This document shows positions 7,785-31,916 of a DNA stretch of 32,000 bases, one piece after another; the first letter of the stretch is position 1; every line of letters starts with the position of its first letter. This stretch comes from Nostoc sp. PCC 7120 = FACHB-418 (GTDB lineage: Bacteria; Cyanobacteriota; Cyanobacteriia; Cyanobacteriales; Nostocaceae), in contig NC_003272.1 of the NCBI RefSeq assembly GCF_000009705.1, positions 750,001 to 782,000 of the forward strand, given 5' to 3'. Under the pieces are notes generated by a model. The model was not told the origin of the DNA, searched no databases, and saw only the letters and a program-made list of their open reading frames with translations. Made by a program: the position numbers and the translations under genes.

Positions 7785-8441
7785 ATGCGCCTCCCTCTAC
7801 CACAGTTTGATAAAAGCGATCGCCAACCTAGCCACATTGCTGAGGTAGTGGAAACTGCTACCACTGAATTTTTGGCACAGTGTCTGGAACCAGAAGACTT
7901 GACCTTTCCATCAATGCCACCGTTTGGTAGTTGGGTGTGTGCCGTGGATGAAGAATCAGGTAATCAGGTCTATGCAGTGGTATATCATGCTACAACTATG
8001 CCTGTAGATTCCGTCCACAGAGCCGTGGCCATGGGGATGTCACTGCAAGACTTACGCGAGGAACAACCCCAGATATTTGCTATGCTGAAGACTGAATTTA
8101 AAGCGGCGATCGTGGGATTCGCTCAGTCATCGCCTGTACCCAACACTAATGGTAGAGTGTATCAGTATCTACCACCACGTCCACCGCAAATTCATCAGGC
8201 TGTACATCGGTGCGAGTCAGAAGTTATAGTTAGATTTACCGAAGAATTAGAATTTCTGCGGACTTTGCTATCTATCAATGGCGCACCAGTGGAATCATTA
8301 ACCGCCGCAGTTATTCGGGATATCTACCAATTACGAAAAGCTGATCGAGACTGGCTCATCAAAGCCGGGCGGAATTTAAGTATATTGCTAAAAGACGACT
8401 ACGATCGCCTACGGTTCATTCTCAGCCAAATACACCCATAG
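7785..8441 (+). CDS. Conserved hypothetical protein, function unknown
   Basis: 218-aa ORF with normal composition that fills the gap between flanking genes. I recognise no diagnostic motif. Confidence 0.7.
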   Translation: MRLPLPQFDKSDRQPSHIAEVVETATTEFLAQCLEPEDLTFPSMPPFGSWVCAVDEESGNQVYAVVYHATTMPVDSVHRAVAMGMSLQDLREEQPQIFAMLKTEFKAAIVGFAQSSPVPNTNGRVYQYLPPRPPQIHQAVHRCESEVIVRFTEELEFLRTLLSINGAPVESLTAAVIRDIYQLRKADRDWLIKAGRNLSILLKDDYDRLRFILSQIHP

Positions 8442-8586: not shown

Positions 8587-10725
8587 ATGGAACCCTCATC
8601 ACTAGTTCTTGCTCTAGAACAAACTTCTGAAGTTCTTGGCAAAGAACCAATTGTTCCTTTCGCAATTTTACTGGTAGTCCTCTTAGTTGTACCCATCCTC
8701 TTTGAAAGGCTAAGATTACCAGGAATAGTGGGTTTAGTCCTCTCTGGATTAGTCTTAGGTCCATCGGGGTGGAACCTATTCCATACAAAATCACCGATGA
8801 TTAGCCTGCTATCAGATATTGGCTTAGTTTATTTGATGTTTGTCGCAGGTCTAGAGGTAGATTTAGAATTGTGGCGGCGGCGGCAAAGACGTGCTTTAGG
8901 GTTTGGCTGCGTTAGTTTTACTATACCGTTGTTGATTGGCACTTTAGTAGGAAGATTTTTTCACTTTGGTTGGAATACTTCCGTATTAATCGGCTCACTT
9001 TTAACTTCTTATAGTCTGTTAGCTTATCCTATTATCAACCGATTAGGTGTCATCAGTAACCAAGCAGTCACAATTACAATTGGGGCTACAGTTTTTACAG
9101 ATATTAGCGCACTTATAGTATTAGCTATTTGCATTCCAGCTTTTCAAATGGGAATGTCAAATATTTACCAGATACTCTCCCTCTTAGGTTGGTTAATTAT
9201 TTACTCGATCGTGATTTTAGTGGGATTTGATTGGGCTGGGAGAGAATTTTTTCGGCGTTCGGGAGACGATGAAGGTAACAAATTTTTATTTGTCTTACTC
9301 ACCGTATTTCTAGCAGTTGTAGTAGCTCAACTGATTGGGATAGAAAAAATTCTGGGAGCTTTTTTAGCAGGTTTAGCAGTAAATGAGGCTGTTGGTGAGG
9401 GGCCTGTTAAAGAAAAAATAGTTTTTGTTGGTAGTGTCTTATTTATTCCGATTTTTTTTATTAACCTCGGCTTGCTGATTGACTTGCCTGGTTTAGTTAA
9501 TAGTCTGTTTACTCTCCAGTTAACCAGTTTGATTGTTATCAGCTTGGTTGCTAGCAAATTTATCGCCGCTTGGTTAGCTAAGGTGTTTTATGGCTACAGT
9601 TGGCAGGAAATGTTGACTATGTGGTCGCTATCTATTCCCCAGGTTGGTACAACATTAGCTGCTACCTTCGTAGGGTATCACACAGGTTTACTTTCATCGG
9701 CAGTTTTAACTAGTGTTGTGATCTTAATGTTAATCACTGCAACCTTAGGCCCATTGATTACTAGTCGCACCGCCAGAGCTTTAACTACCGTATCAATTAC
9801 AGAATCGGTGGATGCAAATCTGCCTGAGCCACAGGTAATAGAAACCCAAAATGGTAACTTTACTATCGTTGTACCGATTTATAATCCCCATACTCAACAA
9901 TATTTGGTGGAAATGGCAGCATTGCTAGCACATCAAGCTCAAGGGCGAATCATACCATTAACGATCGCCACAGCTGCGGCTCATATGGATGCACCCCAAC
10001 TAGAATCAACATTGCAAAGAAGTGAGCGATTATTAGCCAAAGCCACCAGCCAAAGTCAAGCCTTGGGTGTAGCAGCCTCGCCATTACTCCGCATTGACGA
10101 TGCTTCTGCGCCGGGAATTAGTAGAGCAGCGCGTGAGCAAAAAGCCAATTTAATTGTTATGGGTTGGGGTAAACGGACTGGTTTAAGAGCGCGGTTATTT
10201 GGCAATGTCATTGATAATGTTTTGTGGTCGTCCCATTGTCCAGTGGCGGTAACACGTCTTGTAGAATCACCCAAGAAAATTCAACGTATCCTAGTACCGG
10301 TGGAAAACTTAATCACACCAACATTACAGCCTGTACAATTTGCCCAGATGTTAGCAGAAGCCAATCAAGCCCAAGTGACAGTGTTGAATGTGTGCGATCG
10401 CCGCACAAGTTCCAGTAAAATTGCTTCTAGGCGATCGCAACTTGCTTTATTAGTATCTAAATTAGCTTTGCCCAACTCACCCGAAGTGCAAATTATTGCT
10501 CATGAAAATGCTGCTCAAGCCATTTTGCAAGCAGCGCGATTATATGACCTAGTAGTTTTACCCTTTATCCGTAACCGAACAAGTCCTGGAGGATTAGCTC
10601 TCAGCGATGTCACCACTCAGTTAGCCAGTCAACTCACCTGCTCCATCGTCATGTTAGGAGAACCGCAACGCCTGCAAACAGGTAATATCACCTCTGTAGC
10701 TCCTAACACTACGACAGCAGTATAA
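8587..10725 (+). CDS. Cation:proton antiporter (CPA2/Kef-NhaS type) fused to a C-terminal tandem universal-stress-protein (USP)-like region
   Basis: The N-terminal roughly 400 aa are multi-TM with LPGIVGLVLSGLVLGP and GAFLAGLAV motifs. The C-terminal roughly 300 aa are soluble and contain USP-like segments (ANLIVMGWGKRTG..., CPVAV, ILVPV). Confidence 0.85.
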   Translation: MEPSSLVLALEQTSEVLGKEPIVPFAILLVVLLVVPILFERLRLPGIVGLVLSGLVLGPSGWNLFHTKSPMISLLSDIGLVYLMFVAGLEVDLELWRRRQRRALGFGCVSFTIPLLIGTLVGRFFHFGWNTSVLIGSLLTSYSLLAYPIINRLGVISNQAVTITIGATVFTDISALIVLAICIPAFQMGMSNIYQILSLLGWLIIYSIVILVGFDWAGREFFRRSGDDEGNKFLFVLLTVFLAVVVAQLIGIEKILGAFLAGLAVNEAVGEGPVKEKIVFVGSVLFIPIFFINLGLLIDLPGLVNSLFTLQLTSLIVISLVASKFIAAWLAKVFYGYSWQEMLTMWSLSIPQVGTTLAATFVGYHTGLLSSAVLTSVVILMLITATLGPLITSRTARALTTVSITESVDANLPEPQVIETQNGNFTIVVPIYNPHTQQYLVEMAALLAHQAQGRIIPLTIATAAAHMDAPQLESTLQRSERLLAKATSQSQALGVAASPLLRIDDASAPGISRAAREQKANLIVMGWGKRTGLRARLFGNVIDNVLWSSHCPVAVTRLVESPKKIQRILVPVENLITPTLQPVQFAQMLAEANQAQVTVLNVCDRRTSSSKIASRRSQLALLVSKLALPNSPEVQIIAHENAAQAILQAARLYDLVVLPFIRNRTSPGGLALSDVTTQLASQLTCSIVMLGEPQRLQTGNITSVAPNTTTAV

Positions 10726-14230: not shown

Positions 14231-15649
14231 TTAACCAACGATTGCATTAATTTTACCTTTGAGCCAGTAGGTTTGCATATCACCCTTACCTTTGATTGCA
14301 GTTACCCCCCTGTCCTCGAACAAAAAGCTGTCTTTGAGAAGTTCGTGGGATGCAGCACTAACATGGATGCGATTGGGGGTTCCGTGGGATTCCATTCGAC
14401 TGGCAATATTGACGGTATCTCCCCACAGGTCGTAAATGAATTTCTTGATGCCAATGACTCCCGCAACCACCGGTCCACTATTAATACCGATGCGAATTTT
14501 AAATTGTTCGCCGGTATCAAGATTAAATTGAGCGATCGCATCTAGTATATCCAAACCCATATGCGCGATCGCAATTGCATGGTCAGGACGGGGATTGGGT
14601 AATCCTCCAACCACCATATAGGCATCACCAATGGTTTTGATTTTTTCTAAGTTGTAAGATTCTGCCAGTAAATCAAACCGGGAAAAGATTTGATTGAGTA
14701 AATCAACTAACCGTTGGGGAGGTATGCGACCCGATAAATCGGTAAACCCGACAATATCTGCAAACATTACAGTTGCATCGCTAAAACCATCCGCAATCAT
14801 CATTTGGGAAGTCTGGGGACTCGGTTGAGATTGTTTGAGTCTTTCGGCAATAGCTTGGGGTAAAATATTCAACAAAAGTTTCTCTGATTGGGCTTGTTCG
14901 ACGGCTAATCTTTTGGCTGTCATTTGGGTTTCTTGTAACGCAGTTGTCAACTTTGTGACACTGTCCTGTATTTTTTGCACCGCCGGTCGAAATATTAATA
15001 TTCCTTCCAAAAATAAAACGAATAGCGTAATTGCCAGTAAAGTATATTCCACTTGCTTGAGGCGATTTACACCAGCAATTGTTTCTTTGGTAAACCAATC
15101 ACCAATTTCTTCCAATCCTTGCATTAAGACTCTTTCTTCGGCTAATAACTGAGCAAGAGTCGGTTTTTCAGAGACATTAACCCGTCTTATTAGTAGGGGA
15201 TTCGTATTATTTGGCACTCCACCTTCTAGGAGAAATCTGCCTGCTGCTTCACGAAAACCCTTGCCCGAAGGTTGAATTTTTCCTAACTTCTTGCCTAAGA
15301 TAGTCTTTTGAGATTGGGAAAAACTGGGAATATCTTGAGTTGCGATCGCAAGTTTTTCTCCTGATTCTTGCCAATCTTCGATTAGTTGTCGCAGCTGCTG
15401 TAAATTTGGTTGAGAATTGTTTCTATTTGGCTCTAATCCCAGAAATGCCACAAATTTGACGACTTCTTGGCAAATGGTTCGCCTTTTTTCAATTAAACTG
15501 ACAACTTCTAAATTTTTCTCTTGCTGCGATAGCATCCCTTGAATAATTACTTGTCCTGTAATCGATAAACACGCCAACAAACTTAGCGATACAGTATAAA
15601 AAACCGTCAAATGGCGAGTGGAGTTTGAAGACGAGGGCTGTTTCTCCAT
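14231..15649 (-). CDS. Membrane-anchored class III adenylate/guanylate cyclase with an N-terminal sensor region between two TM segments
   Basis: The C-terminal CHD domain has VMFADIVGFTDLS, KTIGDAYMVVGG, RIGINSGPVVAGVIG and DLWGDTVNIASRMES. TM helices sit near aa 15-35 and 200-220. Confidence 0.9.
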   Translation of the reverse strand: MEKQPSSSNSTRHLTVFYTVSLSLLACLSITGQVIIQGMLSQQEKNLEVVSLIEKRRTICQEVVKFVAFLGLEPNRNNSQPNLQQLRQLIEDWQESGEKLAIATQDIPSFSQSQKTILGKKLGKIQPSGKGFREAAGRFLLEGGVPNNTNPLLIRRVNVSEKPTLAQLLAEERVLMQGLEEIGDWFTKETIAGVNRLKQVEYTLLAITLFVLFLEGILIFRPAVQKIQDSVTKLTTALQETQMTAKRLAVEQAQSEKLLLNILPQAIAERLKQSQPSPQTSQMMIADGFSDATVMFADIVGFTDLSGRIPPQRLVDLLNQIFSRFDLLAESYNLEKIKTIGDAYMVVGGLPNPRPDHAIAIAHMGLDILDAIAQFNLDTGEQFKIRIGINSGPVVAGVIGIKKFIYDLWGDTVNIASRMESHGTPNRIHVSAASHELLKDSFLFEDRGVTAIKGKGDMQTYWLKGKINAIVG

Positions 15650-19056: not shown

Positions 19057-21861
19057 TCATTGTTGGGCGATGGGGCGTATCCCGTCGCATAAACTTTTTT
19101 CATCAGGGTTCACATTGGGATTATTTTGCAAATAATCTCGCGCCCAATCACAACCACGCACTAGTAATTGATCTAAATCATCTAGATATAAATGCCAAAC
19201 CACGATATCATACCTGCTACCAGTGGCTAGAGTCTTACCATCAAGACTAAACCGCAAACTCCAAACTGCATCTTTATAGCCTCGCAGGGTACGCAGTTCT
19301 TGACCGTTAATGTTCCAGATTTTTACAGTATTATCACCACTGGCAGTGGCAATGAGTTTACCATCTGGGCTGAAGGTAACATTATGAACTACATTTTTAT
19401 GTCCTCGCAGAGTTCGCAATTCTTTGCCATCAAGATTCCAGATTTTTACAGTATTATCCCAACTAGCACTAGCAATCAGCTTACCATCTGGGCTGAAGGT
19501 GACGCTGTTAATACCACTTGTATGTCCCGTTAAAGTCTTCTGTAATCGACCATCAATACTCCAGATTTTCACTGTTTTGTCCCAACCAGCCGTAGCAATT
19601 AATTTACCATCTGGGCTGAACACTGCGCTATTAACTACACTACTCTGACGTGGGAGAGTTTTAAGCAATTCACCGTCTCGATTCCAGAGTTTGACAGTTT
19701 TGTCTTCACTAGCCGTAGCAATTAACTGACCATCCGGGCTGAAATTGACACTCCAAACTGTATCTTTGTGTCCTGTAAGAGTTTTCTGTAATGTACCATC
19801 TAGATTCCAGAGTTTGGCGGTTTTATCCCAACTCGTCGTAGCAATGTACTTACCATCTGGGCTAAAACTCAGCTTATTTACCCTGCCTTGATGCCCGTTG
19901 AAGGTTCGCAGTTCTTGAAGTTTATCCCCTACAATACTCCAGAGTTTGGCGGTTTTATCCCAACTAGCCGTAGCAATGTACTTACCATTTGGGCTAAATA
20001 CTAGGTCGAAGACCTCATCTTCATGACCCCGAACAATAATGCTGTTAGGACTGTTGAGTTTCCAGATTTTAGCCGTTTTGTCATTACCAGCTGTAGCGAT
20101 GGATGTGCCATCAGGACTAAACGCGACGCTATTAACTGCATCAGTGTGTCCGTAGAGGGTTTCTAGTTCTTGACCTTTGCTGTTCCAAAGTTTGACAGTT
20201 CTGTCACCACTAGCTGTAGCAATCAGTTTGCCGTCGGGACTGAATGTCACACTGTTCACCCCATTTTGATGACCTCTGAGGGTTTGCAGTTCTTTTCCGT
20301 CTAAACTCCAAAGTTTGACAGTTCTGTCACCACTGGCTGTAGCAATTTGTTTACCATCTGGGCTAAAGCTGACGCTCCAAATCATATCTTGATGTCCTCT
20401 AAAAGTTCGCAATTCCTTGCCATCAAGATTCCAGAGTTTCATGGTGTTGTCCCAACCGACAGTGGCAATTAGCTGACCGTCTGGGCTAAAGGTGATGCTG
20501 TTGACCTTATCTTTATGTCCTTCCAGGGTGTGCAGGAGTTTACCTTCTCGACTCCAGAGTTTAACTGTGTTGTCCCAACTAGCCGTAGCAAGTAGCTGAC
20601 TATCAGGACTAAAGGCGACTTCCAAAACTGCTTCTTTATGTCCGTCAAGAGTGTGGAGGCGTTTACCTTCTCGACTCCAAATTTTTGCCGTGTTGTCCCA
20701 ACTGCCGGTAGCCATCAGTGTACCATCGGGGCTGAAGGCAACGCTATTAAAACCCTCTCCTTTCTCTTCTCGCAGTACGACTAACTGTTTTTTACCGTCA
20801 AGACTCCAAATTTTGACTGTTTTATCTCTGCTGGCGGTGGCAATAAATTTACTATCAGGGCTAAAACTCACACTCTCTAGCATTCCATCATGTTCTGCTA
20901 AACGATTTTTCTCTCTGACGAAGTTGATGGACTGTTGTAGAGTCTCGGTAATTTGAGTGCGAGTGTTAGCATCAATTCCATCAGTGCCTTTGATGCGCCT
21001 ACCAGCTCTAATACTGGCAATTAACCCATCAAACTCTAGATTTGCATTAAGGAAGCTTTCGGCTGATGAGCTGATTGCTTTAGTTTCGCTCATCCGTGCC
21101 TTTTGTCCTTGCAACCAAGCAACCCCAGCCAGACCAAGGGCTAAGATTAAGCCTGTGACTAGGGATGAAATCCCGATTTTACGTATGCGCTGCTGCTGTT
21201 TGACCTCAAGTTCTCTCAGTTCCCCACTCTTATTAATGAACCTGATTTCATTTGTATTGAGTTCTTGTGCGCGTTGTAACTGCCATTCTTGGGCATCTAT
21301 CAAGGCCTTACCTCGTAATAGCACCCCTTGATCATGTCCGCTATTTTCCCATAGGCGAATTGCTAACCGTAATTGTTCGCGCCAGCGTAGAAAATCACCA
21401 TCCACAATTAGCCACTGTTCCAGTCGTCCCCAGCTTCTAATTAAGGCTTCATGGACGATTTCTACTGTTTCTTCTGCCGTGGACTCATTACGGTTGGTCA
21501 CTACTAGACGTGAAGAAGCTAAACGTGTGACTAAATCCCAGTTTTCTAGCCTGACTTCCTCACGAGTTGTCAACCGTCGGGTAGCTTCTGTGTCATCTCC
21601 TAAACGTACCAATTGGATAAATATTTGTTGCGCCCTTTGCCTATCTGCTTCGGTTAGCTGGGCATATACAGCCTCAGCATGGTTAGCCAAGGCTTCTTCT
21701 ACACCACCAATTTCTTGATAAGCTTGATGAGTTAAGAGCCTATTTTGCTGTTTTGACCATAATTGGGTAAGGGCAAACTCAAGTAAAGGTAAATGTCCTG
21801 GCTGTTGGTCTATCTCGTCGATTAATTGATTGGTTAATCCTGCTTCTAGTCCTATCTGCAT
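19057..21861 (-). CDS. C-terminal part of a frameshifted CHAT-STAND NTPase-WD40 protein: NTPase helical/winged-helix region, one TM helix, 14 WD40 repeats
   Basis: 934-aa ORF. It begins mid-domain (QIGLEAGLTNQLIDEIDQQPGHLPLLEFALTQLW). The TM helix is IGISSLVTGLILALGLAGVAWL. There are 14 repeats of the type GH.d.V.SV.FSPDGk.IATAS.DkTvKLW. The conserved tail is LLVRGCDWARDYLQNNPNV. Confidence 0.9.
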   Translation of the reverse strand: MQIGLEAGLTNQLIDEIDQQPGHLPLLEFALTQLWSKQQNRLLTHQAYQEIGGVEEALANHAEAVYAQLTEADRQRAQQIFIQLVRLGDDTEATRRLTTREEVRLENWDLVTRLASSRLVVTNRNESTAEETVEIVHEALIRSWGRLEQWLIVDGDFLRWREQLRLAIRLWENSGHDQGVLLRGKALIDAQEWQLQRAQELNTNEIRFINKSGELRELEVKQQQRIRKIGISSLVTGLILALGLAGVAWLQGQKARMSETKAISSSAESFLNANLEFDGLIASIRAGRRIKGTDGIDANTRTQITETLQQSINFVREKNRLAEHDGMLESVSFSPDSKFIATASRDKTVKIWSLDGKKQLVVLREEKGEGFNSVAFSPDGTLMATGSWDNTAKIWSREGKRLHTLDGHKEAVLEVAFSPDSQLLATASWDNTVKLWSREGKLLHTLEGHKDKVNSITFSPDGQLIATVGWDNTMKLWNLDGKELRTFRGHQDMIWSVSFSPDGKQIATASGDRTVKLWSLDGKELQTLRGHQNGVNSVTFSPDGKLIATASGDRTVKLWNSKGQELETLYGHTDAVNSVAFSPDGTSIATAGNDKTAKIWKLNSPNSIIVRGHEDEVFDLVFSPNGKYIATASWDKTAKLWSIVGDKLQELRTFNGHQGRVNKLSFSPDGKYIATTSWDKTAKLWNLDGTLQKTLTGHKDTVWSVNFSPDGQLIATASEDKTVKLWNRDGELLKTLPRQSSVVNSAVFSPDGKLIATAGWDKTVKIWSIDGRLQKTLTGHTSGINSVTFSPDGKLIASASWDNTVKIWNLDGKELRTLRGHKNVVHNVTFSPDGKLIATASGDNTVKIWNINGQELRTLRGYKDAVWSLRFSLDGKTLATGSRYDIVVWHLYLDDLDQLLVRGCDWARDYLQNNPNVNPDEKSLCDGIRPIAQQ
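19192..20892 (-). repeat. Tandem coding repeat array of 14 WD40 units, about 123 nt each
   Basis: I counted 14 FSPDG/FSPDS/FSPNG/FSLDG cores in the translation. The 41-aa periodicity is visible at nucleotide level (recurring ccatctgggctgaa / tttgacagtt strings). Confidence 0.85.
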
Positions 21862-23689
21862 TTTTTTTAGCAGGTTCTTCTATCACCCGACGCAATTCCT
21901 TCATATTCATGGGGCCAAGGTTCTGCACTGCTCCTTGCAAGGCATCACTAAAGGGACGGTAAGAAAGAGCATAGCTGTAAAAGTCAGCCCGCAGGGTTAA
22001 AACGATGGTGAAGGCGGGAGTGAAACTATAAGCATTGAGTAATAAATCTAAAAAAGGCTGACGTTGTGGTTCTGGACAAAGGGTGTAAAGTTCCTCAAAC
22101 TGATCTGCTATGAGTAGTAAACGAGTGCCAAATTTTTGCTGCACAACCTTTTCTAGGATGGTGTGTAGTAATTGATGGTTTTGTTGTAATGCGATCGCTA
22201 AATCTAATTCTAGTAAGCGAGTAGTGGTACTATCTTCTGGCAACTCTAGGATGTTTTCTAGGGAAAAAGAGGGACAACACTGTCGTAAACTCACTAATGC
22301 AGTCGCCAAAGCTTCAAAGGGATTTTTCCCTGGACGAAAAGAAATGATTTGCCATTGCACATTCGGGTCTTGTCGTAACTGGGGAGTCAACCCAGCAAAC
22401 ACTAAACTAGACTTACCACTGCCACTAGCCCCCACTACAGCCACAAACCGCTTTCTTTTCACCGCCTTGACTAAATCAGCCGTGAATTCTTCTCTGCCAA
22501 AAAATAAGTGTGCATCTTCTTCTCGGAAAGCAAATAAACCACGATATGGACAAGGGGGTATGCCGCCCAATTGCAACCAAGTTGGTGGTTCTACAGATGG
22601 GTTTTGAAAAATTACGGGCAACCAAGAAGCACAGGGAAAGTCATCTTCTAATCCTTGTAACTGTCTGCGTGCCTGTTGTACTGCTAAATATAAAGTTTGA
22701 CGCTTGATAGCGAAAGCTTCCAGAAAATTTTGGAAAAACTGCTGGGCGACACAATTTGGCACTGGTTCTCGCATGATAATCACTTGGGGAATATGCAGTT
22801 TTCCCAAAGCATTCGCCAATCCCAGTCCATCACAGGAGTTGAAAATAGCTAACTTTAAACCTCTATCAATGGCTGCGGTGAGAGCTTCCTCTAATTCTCC
22901 AATTGTCAGGCTATTGTTTGTGGGATTGTCATTGATATAAATTATGCCTGTGTCACCTTTGCTTTGACTATGACCTGCAAAAAATAAGATGTCCCAACCT
23001 AAAGAGTCCCAAAGCTGTTTGTTAAATTCTTGACGCGAGGGCTGATTTAGCTGCACAACTTCGGCAATATTCTCTAATTCTTTCAGAAAAGTGGCTTCTC
23101 TTTGCAAGTCAATACCTTGGCTATTGCCCAAAATAGCTAAAATTCTGACTTTGTTTCTGTTGCATAGGGATTGTGTCGCATCTCTTCGTTGATACTCTGT
23201 CCGGGAAAGTCCTAGTTCTGCTTGAGGATAATCTCGAAAAAAGTCCCAGCAATGCCAGGGTAGCCGCCGTAAACTGTCATCGTTGGTTTCTAGAATGACT
23301 CGAATTTCTTCATTGCGGTTAAGTTGCGATCGCAATTGTCTTTCAATTTCTAGAAACTCTACTGACTTAAGCCAAGTATTAATATTATCTCGTAGCTGTT
23401 TACATAATTCATCAAAATCGAGTAGAGACACGTTTGTTATCGCGCCTAATTCTATTTCCAGTTGGTCATCTTCCTCTAACAATGCAGAACGCATTGGTTG
23501 ACGAGTACATAAAGCTTGATAATTGGTACGCCAATGTCTATAGAGTTCTAGTAAATTTGGTGCAGCTGGTAAGCTACCAAGAAACTGCTCTGGCGCATGA
23601 TGACTTGCTGACCAAAGTTGAGTCGTCACGCTGGGAAATCCAGTATACAAATCACCATTACCCAAATTTATGACAATTGTCTTGCTCAT
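21779..23689 (-). CDS. N-terminal part of the same protein: CHAT (caspase-like) protease domain plus STAND P-loop NTPase core
   Basis: 636-aa ORF. It has a CHAT-like His/Cys dyad (ILFFAGHSQS at about aa 240; AIFNSCDGLG at about aa 286). PYRGLFAFREEDAHLFFGRE is followed by Walker A VVGASGSGKSS and Walker B LLLIADQFEE. The last 27 aa are out-of-frame junk after the A8 tract at 21861-21868. Confidence 0.9.
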   Translation of the reverse strand: MSKTIVINLGNGDLYTGFPSVTTQLWSASHHAPEQFLGSLPAAPNLLELYRHWRTNYQALCTRQPMRSALLEEDDQLEIELGAITNVSLLDFDELCKQLRDNINTWLKSVEFLEIERQLRSQLNRNEEIRVILETNDDSLRRLPWHCWDFFRDYPQAELGLSRTEYQRRDATQSLCNRNKVRILAILGNSQGIDLQREATFLKELENIAEVVQLNQPSRQEFNKQLWDSLGWDILFFAGHSQSKGDTGIIYINDNPTNNSLTIGELEEALTAAIDRGLKLAIFNSCDGLGLANALGKLHIPQVIIMREPVPNCVAQQFFQNFLEAFAIKRQTLYLAVQQARRQLQGLEDDFPCASWLPVIFQNPSVEPPTWLQLGGIPPCPYRGLFAFREEDAHLFFGREEFTADLVKAVKRKRFVAVVGASGSGKSSLVFAGLTPQLRQDPNVQWQIISFRPGKNPFEALATALVSLRQCCPSFSLENILELPEDSTTTRLLELDLAIALQQNHQLLHTILEKVVQQKFGTRLLLIADQFEELYTLCPEPQRQPFLDLLLNAYSFTPAFTIVLTLRADFYSYALSYRPFSDALQGAVQNLGPMNMKELRRVIEEPAKKNADRTRSRINQSINRRDRPTARTFTFT

Positions 23690-24302: not shown

Positions 24303-25370
24303 CTATAATTCAAAATTTTCTTTAATAGTAATATTGTCTAAGCTGACCTCAATACTAAACTGTTTTCCTATTTCTCCCTGAAAAGGATTCAGTTGAATAT
24401 AACTATCTTGACTTCTAGATATAACTTCACACAGCGATTTTCCTGCCTTTGATAGTAAAGTTAGCTTGAGATTAGGCTGTAAAAACTTTGTTTCTCCGCT
24501 TGGATGCAACTGGATTAATACACGTAATTTTTCTTCAGCCTCTTCTTTAATATTGACCAACATGACAACAGGATAGTTGCCAAGTTGCATTTCTAAGTTA
24601 ATAATTTTACCCCGCTTGATGCTCTCAGCATTATTTCTGATATTTAAAGCTAAATTAATATCTGGATTAATCAATGCAGCAATTGACTGCCATTCATCGA
24701 GAAAAATCCCCCGTAACCATTGGCTCAATTTAGTTTTATTTTGAGGCAACAATTGTATTAAATTATCTTCGTTGTTGACTGTCGTTAACACAGGTAAAGG
24801 AATGGTATGAGCATCTAAAAAACGGCAGTAAAATAAAATGTGATTTGGTTCTGGATCAAATTCTGCTAGTGGTAGTTGATAACAACCATTCCTTGGTTGT
24901 AAATTCATCTTATCTCTATAACTAACTAGTTGGTCGTAACGTAAAATACCTCGAAGAACTAATTCTGCTTGCTCTTCTAATACTTCAACTACAACATATA
25001 AATGAGCTATCGCTTCTGGCTTAATAATAGTATCTTCAGGTATATTTACTAATTCATCTAGTAGATGTTCCGTAACGATTAAACAAAATTTAAATTCACC
25101 TAATTGGATATGAGTAAAATTATCAATAATTTGATTGTTTTGTTTAATAAGTTGTTCTGGTAGGTTTTCTTTGAGCCATTTAGCAAATCCTAATGATGCC
25201 AGTACATTTAAATATGTTTGCCACTGTTTGAATTCACCAACTACCTGCTGACTAAGTTTTCTTGCTGAGTCAAAACATTCTGGTTCTAACCAAATTGATT
25301 CTGATAACAATAATCTCAATTTATTGTTTTTTTCATGGTTCTTAATCATTATTTTTATCCTTGATTTCAA
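24303..25370 (-). CDS. DUF1822-family protein (cyanobacterial, function unknown)
   Basis: 355-aa ORF. The N-terminal pattern ...ARKLSQQVVGEFKQWQTYLNVLASLGFAKWLKENL... matches my memory of DUF1822. The gene is AT-rich. An alternative ATG start at 25349 has AAGGA upstream. Confidence 0.7.
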   Translation of the reverse strand: MKSRIKIMIKNHEKNNKLRLLLSESIWLEPECFDSARKLSQQVVGEFKQWQTYLNVLASLGFAKWLKENLPEQLIKQNNQIIDNFTHIQLGEFKFCLIVTEHLLDELVNIPEDTIIKPEAIAHLYVVVEVLEEQAELVLRGILRYDQLVSYRDKMNLQPRNGCYQLPLAEFDPEPNHILFYCRFLDAHTIPLPVLTTVNNEDNLIQLLPQNKTKLSQWLRGIFLDEWQSIAALINPDINLALNIRNNAESIKRGKIINLEMQLGNYPVVMLVNIKEEAEEKLRVLIQLHPSGETKFLQPNLKLTLLSKAGKSLCEVISRSQDSYIQLNPFQGEIGKQFSIEVSLDNITIKENFEL

Positions 25371-29835: not shown

Positions 29836-30402
29836 ATGTTCACAATAGATGATCCATCTTTAGCTAATGTTCTAGGAATGATGGCATTAGTTACCTATTG
29901 CATTACATTATTGCCCACAATTTTGAGAATTGTCTTCCCACAAACAAAAGAGACTGGTATTCCTAAATGGTTGTTAAAACGCCGCCGCATGATTGGGCTT
30001 ATCTCTTTCTTTTTGGCTTTGGCTCACGGATTTATGATGATACAAAAGAGAAATTTTGATTTTTTTGACTTCAAGACATTTGTGATTTACATCCAGGGAA
30101 TTAGCATTTTCACGATTTTTACAATTCTCGCTGTTACTTCTAATGATTGGAGTGTCAAAAAGCTTAAATCTAACTGGAAACAATTACATAAACTCACTTA
30201 TTTAGCCATGTTTATTCTAACCTGGCATATCTGGGATAAGATGTCTGGGCATTGGACATATTTAACTCCTATTAGTATTGTGATCATTGCCGGAATCACT
30301 GTTCTATTTATGCTGAGAATGTGGATGGAACACCAAGTGAAAAGAAAGAAATTTGATGCAAAGATAAATCCAGAAAGGTTGCCAGATAATGTCACTAGAT
30401 AA
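29836..30402 (+). CDS. Ferric-reductase-like transmembrane heme-binding protein (YedZ/MsrQ family-like)
   Basis: 188-aa ORF with about 5-6 TM helices. His residues sit in TM helices (LALAHGFMM; WKQLHKLTYLAMFILTWHIW), as in MsrQ/ferric reductase domains. Confidence 0.55.
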   Translation: MFTIDDPSLANVLGMMALVTYCITLLPTILRIVFPQTKETGIPKWLLKRRRMIGLISFFLALAHGFMMIQKRNFDFFDFKTFVIYIQGISIFTIFTILAVTSNDWSVKKLKSNWKQLHKLTYLAMFILTWHIWDKMSGHWTYLTPISIVIIAGITVLFMLRMWMEHQVKRKKFDAKINPERLPDNVTR

Positions 30403-31547: not shown

Positions 31548-31916
31548 TGAAATATAGCCAAAAATATTTAATCGCAAATCACACATTTAATAGTGGTCGA
31601 TGGACGTTGAAACTAAATGGAAGAAGCCCGCCACTATCAATCCAAAATTGTTGAGAGTGTCCTATTTAATGTTAATTTAAAAAACGCTCTCATTTCTTCT
31701 TCCCTTTCACCTGTTACCTGTCACTTATTACCTATGTTTTTGCAGGAGCAAAAAAAATCATAAAAGTTATGAAAAGGATCAATCTCAAGTTGTAGATCAA
31801 TGTATATCTACAAAAGTGAAATTTAACCACCTAAGTAGATAAAGTTCCCTCTTTCAATTCAGTTGAACTTAATTTTCCCCACAATCAAGCAACAAAAAAA
31901 AGTACAAAGGATTTTT

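What the first reader, a model, noticed from the sequence alone, without database searches (positions are those of the whole stretch)
21779..21880. The CHAT-STAND-WD40 gene is split by a +1 frame change exactly at an A8 homopolymer
The coding strand reads ...GAA CCT GCT AAA AAA AAT GCA GAT AGG..., and the A8 tract corresponds to T8 at 21861-21868 on the plus strand. In this frame the protein runs ...EEPAKKNADRT... and stops 27 codons later. The 934-aa ORF starts at the ATG formed by the last A of the tract. Removing one A gives ...EEPAKKMQIGLEAGLTNQLIDEIDQQPGHLPLLEFALTQLW..., a seamless continuation of the NTPase. There are three possible explanations. It may be a homopolymer sequencing error. 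It may be a recent inactivating mutation of a potentially toxic death effector. It may be a slippage-prone on/off switch working by phase variation or transcriptional slippage, producing either an effector-only CHAT-NTPase or the full sensor-coupled protein. A simple -1 ribosomal slip does not restore the frame, because it gives TGC AGA TAG.
Basis: seen in the sequence. Interest (0 to 1): 0.7.

Follow-up and report, generated by a model that had tools for sequence, protein, structure and literature searches.

The report
Recent one-base frameshift splitting all0665/all0664
In the reference lineage of the model cyanobacterium Nostoc (Anabaena) sp. PCC 7120, one extra A in a run of seven has recently split a large caspase-like "death-sensor" gene into two reading frames; it is a real but ordinary laboratory-lineage mutation, not a sequencing error and not a demonstrable on/off switch.

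Summary
On the minus strand a 636-aa ORF (CHAT plus the first half of nSTAND1) and a 934-aa ORF (second half of nSTAND1, a TM helix, 14 WD40 repeats) overlap at an A8 run (T8, 21861-21868). Removing one A gives a 1543-aa protein.

The window is Nostoc sp. PCC 7120, genes all0665 and all0664. The repaired protein is residue-for-residue identical to the intact protein of sister strains (NIES-23, FACHB-709) and of some sequencing runs. The closest orthologues are intact.

A8 recurs in many independent de novo read assemblies, and a published resequencing of 63 PCC 7120 genomes reports no change there. It is therefore real, not an assembly error.

Only two tract states (A7, A8) occur. They fit a lineage tree with no reversal, Lys-Lys at this site is found in 1 of 117 homologues, and no recoding signal is present. 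A phase-variation or slippage switch is unsupported.

Other lineages carry different frameshifts in the same gene. Neighbouring genes (all0661 G6→G7, all0666 T6→T7) also carry lineage-specific +1 run insertions, so recurrence fits ordinary slippage mutations accumulating in culture.

Verdict: a fresh lineage-specific pseudogene of low intrinsic novelty, useful as a natural isogenic null/intact pair.

The parts
21861..21868 (-). A8 run on the coding strand (T8 on +). It is a derived +1 insertion into an ancestral A7 run (GCT AAA AAA ATG), and it is the frame break.
   Evidence: sequence; same-strain assemblies with A7; orthologues in frame.
19057..23689 (-). The whole ancestral gene (4632 nt once one A is removed), encoding a 1543-aa CHAT-nSTAND1-TM-WD40 protein.
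   Evidence: repair; identical to P0123 (BAY71641.1 and others). L022 encodes it.
21779..23689 (-). Upstream ORF, 636 aa = all0665 (BAB72623.1 / WP_010994841.1). It holds CHAT plus the P-loop half of nSTAND1, followed by 27 out-of-frame codons.
   Evidence: The locus tag was deduced.
19057..21861 (-). Downstream ORF, 934 aa from the ATG at the run (gene callers start it later, giving 877 aa) = all0664. It holds the second half of nSTAND1, a hydrophobic helix and 14 WD40 repeats.
22643..23335 (-). CHAT (caspase-like protease) domain, aa 119-349. Candidate catalytic His lies in FFAGHSQ (22964-22984) and Cys in IFNSCDG (22826-22846).
   Evidence: PF12770, 52.9 bits, cut-off 24. (motif coordinates). 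The dyad assignment is an inference from the motifs.
21854..22549 (-). nSTAND1 N-terminal part (profile positions 1-205). It contains Walker A GASGSGKSS (22406-22432), Walker B LLLIADQFEE (22091-22120) and a GxP-type motif NLGPMN (21905-21922) just before the break.
21328..21852 (-). nSTAND1 C-terminal part (profile positions 206-378), now in the other frame.
21112..21177 (-). Hydrophobic 22-residue segment IGISSLVTGLILALGLAGVAWL between the NTPase and the WD40 repeats; a probable transmembrane helix.
   Evidence: This is a sequence inference only.
19162..20892 (-). WD40 repeat array (14 repeats by Pfam), the presumed sensor region.
   Evidence: PF00400, 14 stretches, 579 bits.
23076..23077 (-). 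TT in GAATTAGAG. A second lab lineage has TTT here together with A7 at the run, giving 222-aa and 1332-aa products. This is an independent frameshift allele.
21347..21349 (-). GGG in TGGGAAAAT. One read assembly implies GG here (795-aa product P0128). This is a singleton allele, real or an error.
19795..19805 (-). AATCTA^GATGG. The genome of Anabaena sp. FACHB-595 implies a +1 insertion here (1326-aa product P0125). It is a single assembly whose sequencing technology is unknown.

Best explanation
The window is the chromosome of Nostoc (Anabaena) sp. PCC 7120. all0665 and all0664 are the two halves of one ancestral 1543-aa gene. That gene encodes an NLR-like STAND protein with four parts: an N-terminal CHAT caspase-like protease as effector, an nSTAND1 P-loop NTPase as switch, one hydrophobic helix, and 14 WD40 repeats as sensor.

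In the lineage that gave the reference genome, replication slippage added one A to an A7 run (AAA AAA A of Lys-Lys-Met). Translation now leaves the frame inside the helical part of the NTPase, just after the GxP-type motif, and stops 27 codons later.

Shown: the mutation is real, derived, very recent and stably inherited.

Inferred: it is in effect a null allele. The 636-aa product keeps the protease and the P-loop core but lacks the rest of the NTPase and the sensor. The downstream ORF has no evident ribosome-binding signal at the run. At most trace amounts of full-length protein could arise from rare -1/+2 transcript errors or +1 ribosomal slips on AAA AAA A.

It is one of several +1 mononucleotide-run insertions that distinguish laboratory lineages of this strain. 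Whether its fixation was neutral or favoured is open.
For: Identity of the locus:
- the 636-aa ORF is BAB72623.1 of PCC 7120 (contig of 6,413,771 bp).
- Tags anchor as follows: alr0653 = RodA, alr0655 = BAB72613.1 and asr0670 = BAB72628.1, all0666 = the 348-aa protein BAB72624.1.

One gene cut in two:
- nSTAND1 profile positions 1-205 and 206-378 fall on the two ORFs.

Derived and recent:
- the repaired protein equals P0123 (NIES-23, FACHB-709 and others; 56 index blocks). L022 differs from the window by this single base over 7.6 kb.
- N. parmelioides FACHB-3921 (94% nt identity) is intact and reads GCC AAA AAA ATG. MAG PMM_0081 (86%) is intact and reads GCA AAA AAA ATG.
- dN/dS is 0.29 overall, 0.24 upstream and 0.32 downstream of the break.

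Real, not an artefact:
- the A8 allele is present, 100% identical to the window, in many independent de novo assemblies.
- 63 Illumina/breseq genomes show no difference from the reference in all0664/all0665.

Ordinary slippage background:
- all0661 has G6→G7 in a sub-branch of the A8 lineage. all0666 has T6→T7 in a lineage with the intact gene. No SNPs occur over 8-18 kb.
- Every combination of states fits a tree with ancestor A7/TT/G6/T6 and no reversal.

No recoding signals:
- no Rfam hit; folding z-score 0.10. Lys-Lys at this site in 1 of 117 homologues.
Against: - No read-level or RNA/protein data were available, so within-culture A7/A8 heterogeneity and low-level rescue are untested.
- The same gene carries up to three further independent frameshift alleles (TT→TTT on about 20 contigs; one in FACHB-595; one single contig). 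This could mean more than neutral drift.
- The truncated CHAT-NTPase product might retain some activity.
- Sample metadata (which SRA runs are DNA or RNA, and from which laboratory) could not be read.
Confidence: 0.85

Rival explanations
1. Adaptive loss. The intact CHAT-nSTAND1-WD40 protein is costly or auto-toxic in axenic culture, so null alleles have been repeatedly selected. The A8 insertion would be one of several independent loss-of-function hits. This refines the best explanation rather than excluding it.
For: Four different frameshift alleles exist in an otherwise identical gene: A7→A8 (51 index blocks), TT→TTT (about 20 contigs), a +1 in FACHB-595, and GGG→GG on a single contig. The gene was under purifying selection before (dN/dS 0.29). 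Many family members in other cyanobacteria are truncated, some with short non-homologous tails.
Against: A local control removes the statistical force. Among 14 genes of this window looked up, two others (all0661, all0666) also carry lineage-level +1 frameshifts. The gene makes up about 23% of the residues surveyed. Conditioning on the A8 allele that drew attention, one more lineage-level hit out of three is expected about half the time; even counting the two singletons, P is about 0.08 (my own rough binomial estimate). The intact allele is common (56 index blocks), so it is clearly tolerated in culture.
Confidence: 0.17
2. Programmed or exploited on/off switch. The A run would act as a contingency tract (phase variation) or a transcriptional/ribosomal slippage site that toggles between an effector-only CHAT-NTPase and the full sensor-coupled protein.
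For: A7/A8 runs are slippage-prone, and both lengths exist among cultures of one strain. tRNA-Lys re-pairing after a +1 shift on AAA AAA A would be perfect, which follows from the sequence itself. Transcript insertions rise exponentially with A/T run length (PMC5574713).
Against: Only two lengths are seen, and no A6 or A9 product is in the 90% cluster. States co-segregate with other markers and need no reversal. Sixty-three resequenced genomes of an A8 line show no change at a consensus cut-off of 0.8. The out-of-frame arrangement is absent from all orthologues, and Lys-Lys is present in 1 of 117 homologues. There is no stimulatory structure (z 0.10) and no Rfam element. Rescue needs -1 or +2 in the RNA, whereas single-base insertions predominate at runs and deletions within runs were rare in that study.
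Confidence: 0.05
3. Homopolymer sequencing or assembly error in the reference genome. The true sequence would be A7 and the gene intact.
For: The reference dates from 2001. Resequencing finds other run-length discrepancies common to all wild-type lines, for example (A)8→7, (T)8→7 and (A)9→8. An A7 allele exists in other data sets.
Against: A8 is reproduced exactly in many independent de novo assemblies of different SRA projects. This site is not among the 123 discrepancies found by Illumina/breseq resequencing against the reference.
Confidence: 0.02
4. Functional split gene. The two ORFs would be translated separately and act as a two-component system (CHAT-NBD plus WHD-TM-WD40).
For: An ATG is created exactly at the junction. 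Some relatives naturally lack the WD40 part, being CHAT+nSTAND1 proteins of 850-950 aa.
Against: The cut lies inside the nSTAND1 domain, not between domains. The natural short relatives all retain the complete NTPase. No Shine-Dalgarno-like motif precedes the ATG (sequence). The arrangement is one mutation old and unique to one lab lineage.
Confidence: 0.03

Closest known systems
Reference-lineage frameshift pseudogenes in laboratory strains of model cyanobacteria (for example, the 1-bp insertion that splits pilC into slr0162/slr0163 in the Kazusa substrain of Synechocystis PCC 6803; recalled from memory, not checked here)
   Same: A single-base insertion is fixed in the lineage used for the reference genome. 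The gene is annotated as two ORFs, and sister substrains are intact. A large substrain-specific mutation load is documented for PCC 7120 (123 differences between one lab's wild type and the reference; PMC10811720).
   Different: The gene affected is an NLR-like CHAT-STAND-WD40 gene with no known phenotype. I found no paper mentioning all0664/all0665 or their accession numbers.
Bacterial NLR-like STAND conflict-system proteins (nSTAND1 family; effector-NTPase-repeat sensor architecture, as in Avs and bNACHT antiviral STAND proteins)
   Same: The tripartite layout is present: CHAT protease effector, nSTAND1 P-loop NTPase with Walker A and B motifs, and a WD40 repeat array. nSTAND1 and CHAT are described as components of putative conflict systems enriched in multicellular bacteria (PMC10907252).
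   Different: No PADLOC defence model matches beyond repeat-level similarity. No solved structure is detectable by sequence. No experimental function is known. The allele in the window is broken inside the NTPase.
Phase-variable contingency loci with homopolymeric tracts (Neisseria, Haemophilus, Campylobacter type; from general knowledge)
   Same: A mononucleotide run inside a coding sequence whose length change switches the reading frame.
   Different: The run is short (A7/A8) and A/T. Only two states are seen and they are stably inherited in lineages. The run is not conserved among homologues.
Frameshifts at poly(A) tracts partly rescued by transcriptional slippage (endosymbionts; programmed cases such as Thermus dnaX and IS elements; review PMC5009743 was listed but not read)
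   Same: An A run at the exact site of a frameshift, so RNA polymerase slippage could in principle yield some in-frame mRNA.
   Different: The run has 8 residues and rescue requires -1 or +2. Genome-wide data show mainly +1 insertions at A/T runs, few deletions within runs, and no case of a restored reading frame in that study (PMC5574713). There is no conservation of the out-of-frame state.

Membership tests
nSTAND1 STAND NTPase (Pfam PF20703) | Match to the family profile above the curated cut-off, over the whole domain | tested here: met
   209.2 bits (profile positions 1-205) in the upstream ORF and 175.7 bits (positions 206-378) in the downstream ORF; the cut-off is 27.1. The two matches are contiguous once one A is removed.
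nSTAND1 STAND NTPase (Pfam PF20703) | P-loop Walker A and Walker B motifs | tested here: met
   GASGSGKSS and LLLIADQFEE are present. This is a motif-level reading.
NLR-like effector-NTPase-sensor conflict protein | N-terminal effector domain (CHAT caspase-like protease) with a His/Cys dyad | tested here: met
   PF12770, 52.9 bits (cut-off 24), aa 119-349. FFAGHSQ and IFNSCDG motifs are present. The catalytic assignment is inferred.
NLR-like effector-NTPase-sensor conflict protein | C-terminal repeat sensor | tested here: met
   14 WD40 repeats, 579 bits.
NLR-like effector-NTPase-sensor conflict protein | Ligand-triggered oligomerisation and a cell-death or antiviral phenotype | not testable with these tools
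   No experimental data were found (searches gave no paper on this gene).
Catalogued anti-phage defence systems (PADLOC-DB v2) | Significant match to a system-specific protein model | tested here: not met
   only a repeat-region match to HEAT-ARM_XIII (aa 981-1135) and a 20-residue P-loop match to mad3 (E = 1.8e-4). The neighbours all0666 and all0667 have no match.
Phase-variable contingency locus | Several tract lengths and repeated, reversible switching among clonal descendants | tested here: not met
   Only A7 and A8 occur. Marker combinations fit a tree without reversal. Sixty-three resequenced genomes are unchanged at consensus level. Minority variants within cultures were not testable.
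Phase-variable contingency locus | Tract maintained by selection in related genomes | tested here: not met
   Lys-Lys occurs at this position in 1 of 117 homologues. UHCC 0870 reads AKQ, and an 81%-identical relative reads AQQ. The two closest orthologues keep a run, but in frame.
Programmed recoding (transcriptional slippage or ribosomal frameshift) site | An out-of-frame arrangement conserved in orthologues | tested here: not met
   All orthologues and sister strains are single in-frame ORFs.
Programmed recoding (transcriptional slippage or ribosomal frameshift) site | Stimulatory elements (RNA structure; a slow codon or suitably spaced SD-like element) | tested here: not met
   MFE -21.1 kcal/mol against a shuffle mean of -21.4, z = 0.10; no Rfam family. 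The A-site codon after the run is AAT (sequence).
Sequencing/assembly artefact | Not reproducible in independent data | tested here: not met
   It is reproduced in many independent assemblies and is not flagged by resequencing.

The most novel reading that the evidence does not exclude
The intact CHAT-nSTAND1-WD40 gene is counter-selected during axenic laboratory culture, for example through an autoimmune-like cost of an NLR-type death effector. On this reading PCC 7120 lineages have inactivated it independently up to four times: A7→A8, TT→TTT, a +1 in FACHB-595, and GGG→GG. The public strain set would then already contain a natural allelic series for testing what a bacterial NLR-like caspase sensor does in a multicellular cyanobacterium.
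Probability: 0.17. Interest if true: 0.55.

Novelty: new member of a known kind. Interest (0 to 1): 0.22.

Why it matters
**Annotation and experimental design.** The two reference genes all0665 and all0664 are halves of one gene that is intact in NIES-23, FACHB-709 and some laboratory lines. PCC 7120 'wild types' used in different laboratories are therefore not isogenic at an NLR-like CHAT-STAND-WD40 locus. At least three states are in circulation, and there are further run-length differences in all0661 and all0666.

This matters to anyone who:
- studies cell death, phage defence or WD40/STAND proteins in Anabaena;
- interprets knock-outs or omics data for these genes;
- uses the reference protein set for comparative genomics.

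**A ready-made resource.** The locus offers near-isogenic null and intact strains for a first functional test of this widespread but uncharacterised cyanobacterial family.

**Mechanism.** Nothing new is indicated mechanistically.

Tried and rejected
1. **Sequencing error.** Rejected after exact look-ups of the A8 product in independent assemblies and after reading the resequencing tables of PMC10811720.

2. **Conserved slippery site.** Rejected. Only three DNA comparators were recovered: L020, L021 and L022. All are in frame. Protein-level survey of 117 homologues shows Lys-Lys only in this gene, and no homologue is truncated at this junction.

3. **Recoding signals.** Rfam over the whole window gave nothing. 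Folding of 131 nt around the run gave z = 0.10.

4. **My own idea of 'recurrent selected loss'.** It looked strong after and after the first neighbour control. It weakened when I inspected the shorter cluster members and found real +1 run frameshifts in all0661 and all0666 in other lineages.

5. **Literature.** No paper mentions all0664/all0665, BAB72622/3, WP_010994841 or BAY71641, the SRA run numbers, or NIES-23 together with PCC 7120 and 'frameshift'. A review of Synechocystis substrains did not contain the pilC example I recalled, so that analogy rests on memory.

6. **Known defence families and solved structures.** No informative match in PADLOC, in PDB sequences or in NCBIfam (repeat-level hits only).

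7. **Downstream ORF look-up.** Exact look-up of the 934-aa and 877-aa forms failed, probably because of start-codon differences. The current database annotation of all0664 was therefore not seen.

8. **Not attempted.** Structure prediction was skipped because the Pfam split (profile positions 205|206) already locates the break.
Full report
**1. The observation**

The coding (minus) strand reads GAA GAA CCT GCT AAA AAA AAT GCA GAT AGG, and the A8 run is T8 at 21861-21868 on the plus strand.

- The ORF at 21779..23689 (-) is 636 aa and ends ...EEPAKK followed by 27 out-of-frame residues.
- The ORF at 19057..21861 (-) is 934 aa and starts at the ATG that uses the last A of the run.
- Deleting one A gives one ORF of 1543 aa; adding two A's also restores the frame.

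The overlap is not a chance juxtaposition of ORFs.

- Pfam nSTAND1 matches profile positions 1-205 in the upstream ORF and 206-378 in the downstream ORF.
- The upstream ORF also carries a CHAT domain; the downstream ORF carries 14 WD40 repeats.
- Walker A (GASGSGKSS), Walker B (LLLIADQFEE) and the CHAT His and Cys motifs (FFAGHSQ, IFNSCDG) are present.
- A 22-residue hydrophobic segment separates the NTPase from the WD40 array.
- The break falls just after a GxP-type motif (NLGPMN), inside the NTPase module.

**2. Whose genome this is**

- An exact look-up identifies the 636-aa product as BAB72623.1 / WP_010994841.1 of Nostoc sp. PCC 7120, on a 6,413,771-bp chromosome.
- The locus tags can be anchored:
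  - RodA in the window is alr0653 (PMC10653889).
  - BAB72613.1 is alr0655 and BAB72628.1 is asr0670.
  - The 348-aa DUF1822 protein directly upstream is all0666 (PMC2823733; BAB72624.1).
- The upstream ORF is therefore all0665 and the WD40 ORF is all0664.
- I found no paper that mentions either tag or their accessions.

**3. Which state is ancestral**

- The repaired protein is residue-for-residue identical to P0123, a 1543-aa protein of NIES-23 (BAY71641.1), FACHB-709 and others. It appears in 56 index blocks of the assembly collection.
- A genome contig encoding it (L022, GCA_014696465.1) differs from the window by only this one base over 7.6 kb.
- The two closest orthologues recovered from species-representative genomes are intact:
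  - Nostoc parmelioides FACHB-3921 (94% nt identity) reads GCC AAA AAA ATG.
  - MAG PMM_0081 (86%) reads GCA AAA AAA ATG. That is eight A's, but in frame, because the Ala codon ends in A.
- dN/dS against the N. parmelioides gene is 0.29, with 0.24 upstream and 0.32 downstream of the run. Both halves were under purifying selection until very recently.

A8 after GCT is therefore a derived +1 insertion into an A7 run.

**4. Real or artefact**

- The exact A8 product is encoded in many independent de novo assemblies of public sequencing runs. These include SRR1463357, a series of SRR34939xxx runs and SRR32570055 (51 index blocks). All are 100% identical to the window over up to 7.9 kb.
- A published study sequenced 63 PCC 7120 genomes with Illumina and called variants with breseq against the reference assembly.
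  - It lists 123 differences common to its wild types, many of them run-length changes.
  - None lies between alr0556 and alr0764, and none lies in all0664/all0665 (PMC10811720).

The reference is right, and the sequencing-error reading is refuted.

**5. Is it a switch**

Public assemblies of the same strain fall into lineages. Apart from the differences below, there is not a single substitution over 8-18 kb.

| Lineage | State at the run | Other marker | Example runs |
|---|---|---|---|
| A (= window) | A8 | – | SRR1463357, SRR34939xxx |
| Sub-branch of A | A8 | G6→G7 in adenylate cyclase all0661 (window 14305-14310) | SRR1463357, SRR1020508, SRR31130763 |
| B | A7 | Extra T at GAATTAGAG (23076-23077), giving 222-aa and 1332-aa products | SRR34066xxx, SRR1020891-4 |
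| C | A7, intact 1543-aa gene | T6→T7 in all0666 (24817-24822) | SRR32409269 and neighbours |

- Every observed combination fits a tree with ancestor A7/TT/G6/T6 in which each change happened once. No combination requires a reversal.
- No A6 or A9 product exists among the cluster members.
- The tract is not a conserved feature. Among 117 homologues aligned at the junction, Lys-Lys occurs only in this gene; the common residues are Ala-Gln and Ala-Leu. No homologue is truncated at this junction.
- There is no Rfam element in the window. There is no unusual RNA structure around the run (z = 0.10).
- Restoring the frame at the RNA level would need a deletion of one A or an insertion of two.
  - Genome-wide measurements in E. 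coli and Buchnera found that single-base insertions predominate at A/T runs.
  - Deletions within runs were rare, and no reading frame was restored in that data set (PMC5574713).
- A +1 ribosomal slip on AAA AAA A is sterically possible, but the next codon (AAT) is not an obvious pause site and no stimulator is evident.

A programmed or exploited switch is therefore unsupported. Low-level stochastic rescue cannot be excluded without cDNA or protein data.

**6. Recurrent hits: selection or background?**

- Besides A8 and TTT, two more frameshift alleles of the same otherwise identical gene appear:
  - a +1 near AATCTA^GATGG in the Anabaena sp. FACHB-595 genome (P0125, 1326 aa);
  - a GGG→GG deletion in one read assembly (P0128, 795 aa).
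- This suggested repeated selection for loss of a costly death effector. A first look at ten neighbouring genes seemed to show single alleles only.
- Closer inspection of the shorter cluster members showed genuine lineage-level +1 frameshifts in all0661 and all0666.
- The gene contributes about 23% of the residues surveyed. One discovery-biased hit must be set aside, and after that the excess is not significant. My rough binomial gives about 0.5 for lineage-level alleles and about 0.08 with the singletons included.
- The intact allele is also common.
- I therefore keep adaptive loss as a minority refinement (about 0.17), not the main reading.

The more general picture is that +1 insertions in mononucleotide runs are the main differences between laboratory lineages of this strain in this region.

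**7. How it most likely works**

Shown:
- One extra A, fixed in the reference lineage, moves translation out of frame within the nSTAND1 domain.

Inferred:
- The 636-aa product retains the CHAT protease and the P-loop core. It lacks the remaining helical and winged-helix part of the NTPase, the hydrophobic helix and the WD40 sensor.
- It is therefore most likely inactive as a regulated STAND switch, and it is evidently not lethal.
- The downstream ORF lacks a recognisable Shine-Dalgarno motif at the run (gene callers start it 57 codons later). It is probably poorly translated, if at all.
- The ancestral protein belongs by domain content to the NLR-like effector-NTPase-repeat proteins. These are proposed to act in biological-conflict or cell-death systems of multicellular bacteria (PMC10907252).
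- It does not match any catalogued defence system in PADLOC, and no solved structure is detectable by sequence. Its function remains untested.

**8. Comparison and novelty**

- The closest analogue is the class of reference-lineage frameshift pseudogenes in laboratory cyanobacteria. I recall the split pilC of the Kazusa Synechocystis substrain, from memory and not verified here (one search did not contain it).
- It resembles contingency loci and poly(A) slippage-rescued genes only in having a run at the break. It fails the tests that define those classes: multiple or reversible lengths, conservation, and stimulators.
- It is a new instance of a known kind of event.

**9. Verdict**

Intrinsic interest is low (0.22). 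The practical value is that PCC 7120 'wild types' differ at this NLR-like locus, and that intact and null near-isogenic strains already exist.

Noticed in passing
window 14305-14310 (C6 on +; G6 on the coding strand of all0661, ORF 14231..15649 -): A sub-branch of the A8 lineage (SRR1463357, SRR1020508, SRR31130763/52; 15 contigs) has G7 here. This truncates the adenylate cyclase from 472 to 454 aa within its C-terminal cyclase domain.
   Followed up: yes
window 24817-24822 (A6 on +; T6 on the coding strand of all0666, DUF1822, ORF 24303..25370 -): A lineage that keeps the intact 1543-aa gene (SRR32409269-74, SRR32993896-8) has T7 here. This splits the DUF1822 protein directly upstream into 195-aa and 162-aa products.
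   Followed up: yes
whole window, compared with L001-L029: All four lineage-level differences between public assemblies of this strain in this region are +1 insertions in mononucleotide runs (A7, T2, G6, T6), and there are no substitutions over 8-18 kb. The published list of wild-type-versus-reference differences, in the part I read, is also rich in run-length changes and mostly transition SNPs. Whether this reflects a slippage-prone or repair-poor mutation spectrum was not examined.
   Followed up: partly
L006-L009 (SRR1020891-4), equivalent to window ~23720 to ~18850: These contigs begin within about 35 nt of the start codon of the gene, and three of them end shortly after its stop. They look like assembled transcripts. 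If so, the locus is transcribed as one unit of about 4.8 kb. The run type (RNA or DNA) could not be checked.
   Followed up: no
window 9452-9459 (T8) inside ORF 8587..10725 + (alr0656, Na+/H+ antiporter); also A8 at 31750-31757 and 31894-31901: Other 8-base A/T runs exist in the window. The one in alr0656 is in frame, and a single allele of that protein was seen on 140 contigs. It would make a good internal control for read-level slippage noise.
   Followed up: partly
window 29836..30402 + and 7785..8441 +: Reference annotations are shorter than the ORFs that other annotations call. asr0670 is 64 aa (BAB72628.1) against a 188-aa ferric-reductase-like protein. alr0655 is 197 aa (BAB72613.1) against 218 aa. 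These are probably old start or ORF-calling differences, not mutations.
   Followed up: no
homologues P0040, P0049, P0068, P0085 and others: Several CHAT-nSTAND1(-WD40) relatives in other cyanobacteria end in short non-homologous tails at various positions, which suggests frameshifted or truncated copies are common in this family. Many others (850-950 aa) naturally lack WD40 repeats but keep the full NTPase.
   Followed up: partly
window 21112-21177 (-): A 22-residue hydrophobic helix lies between the NTPase and the WD40 array. If it spans a membrane, the sensor repeats would sit on the opposite side from the CHAT-NTPase part. This was not examined further.
   Followed up: no
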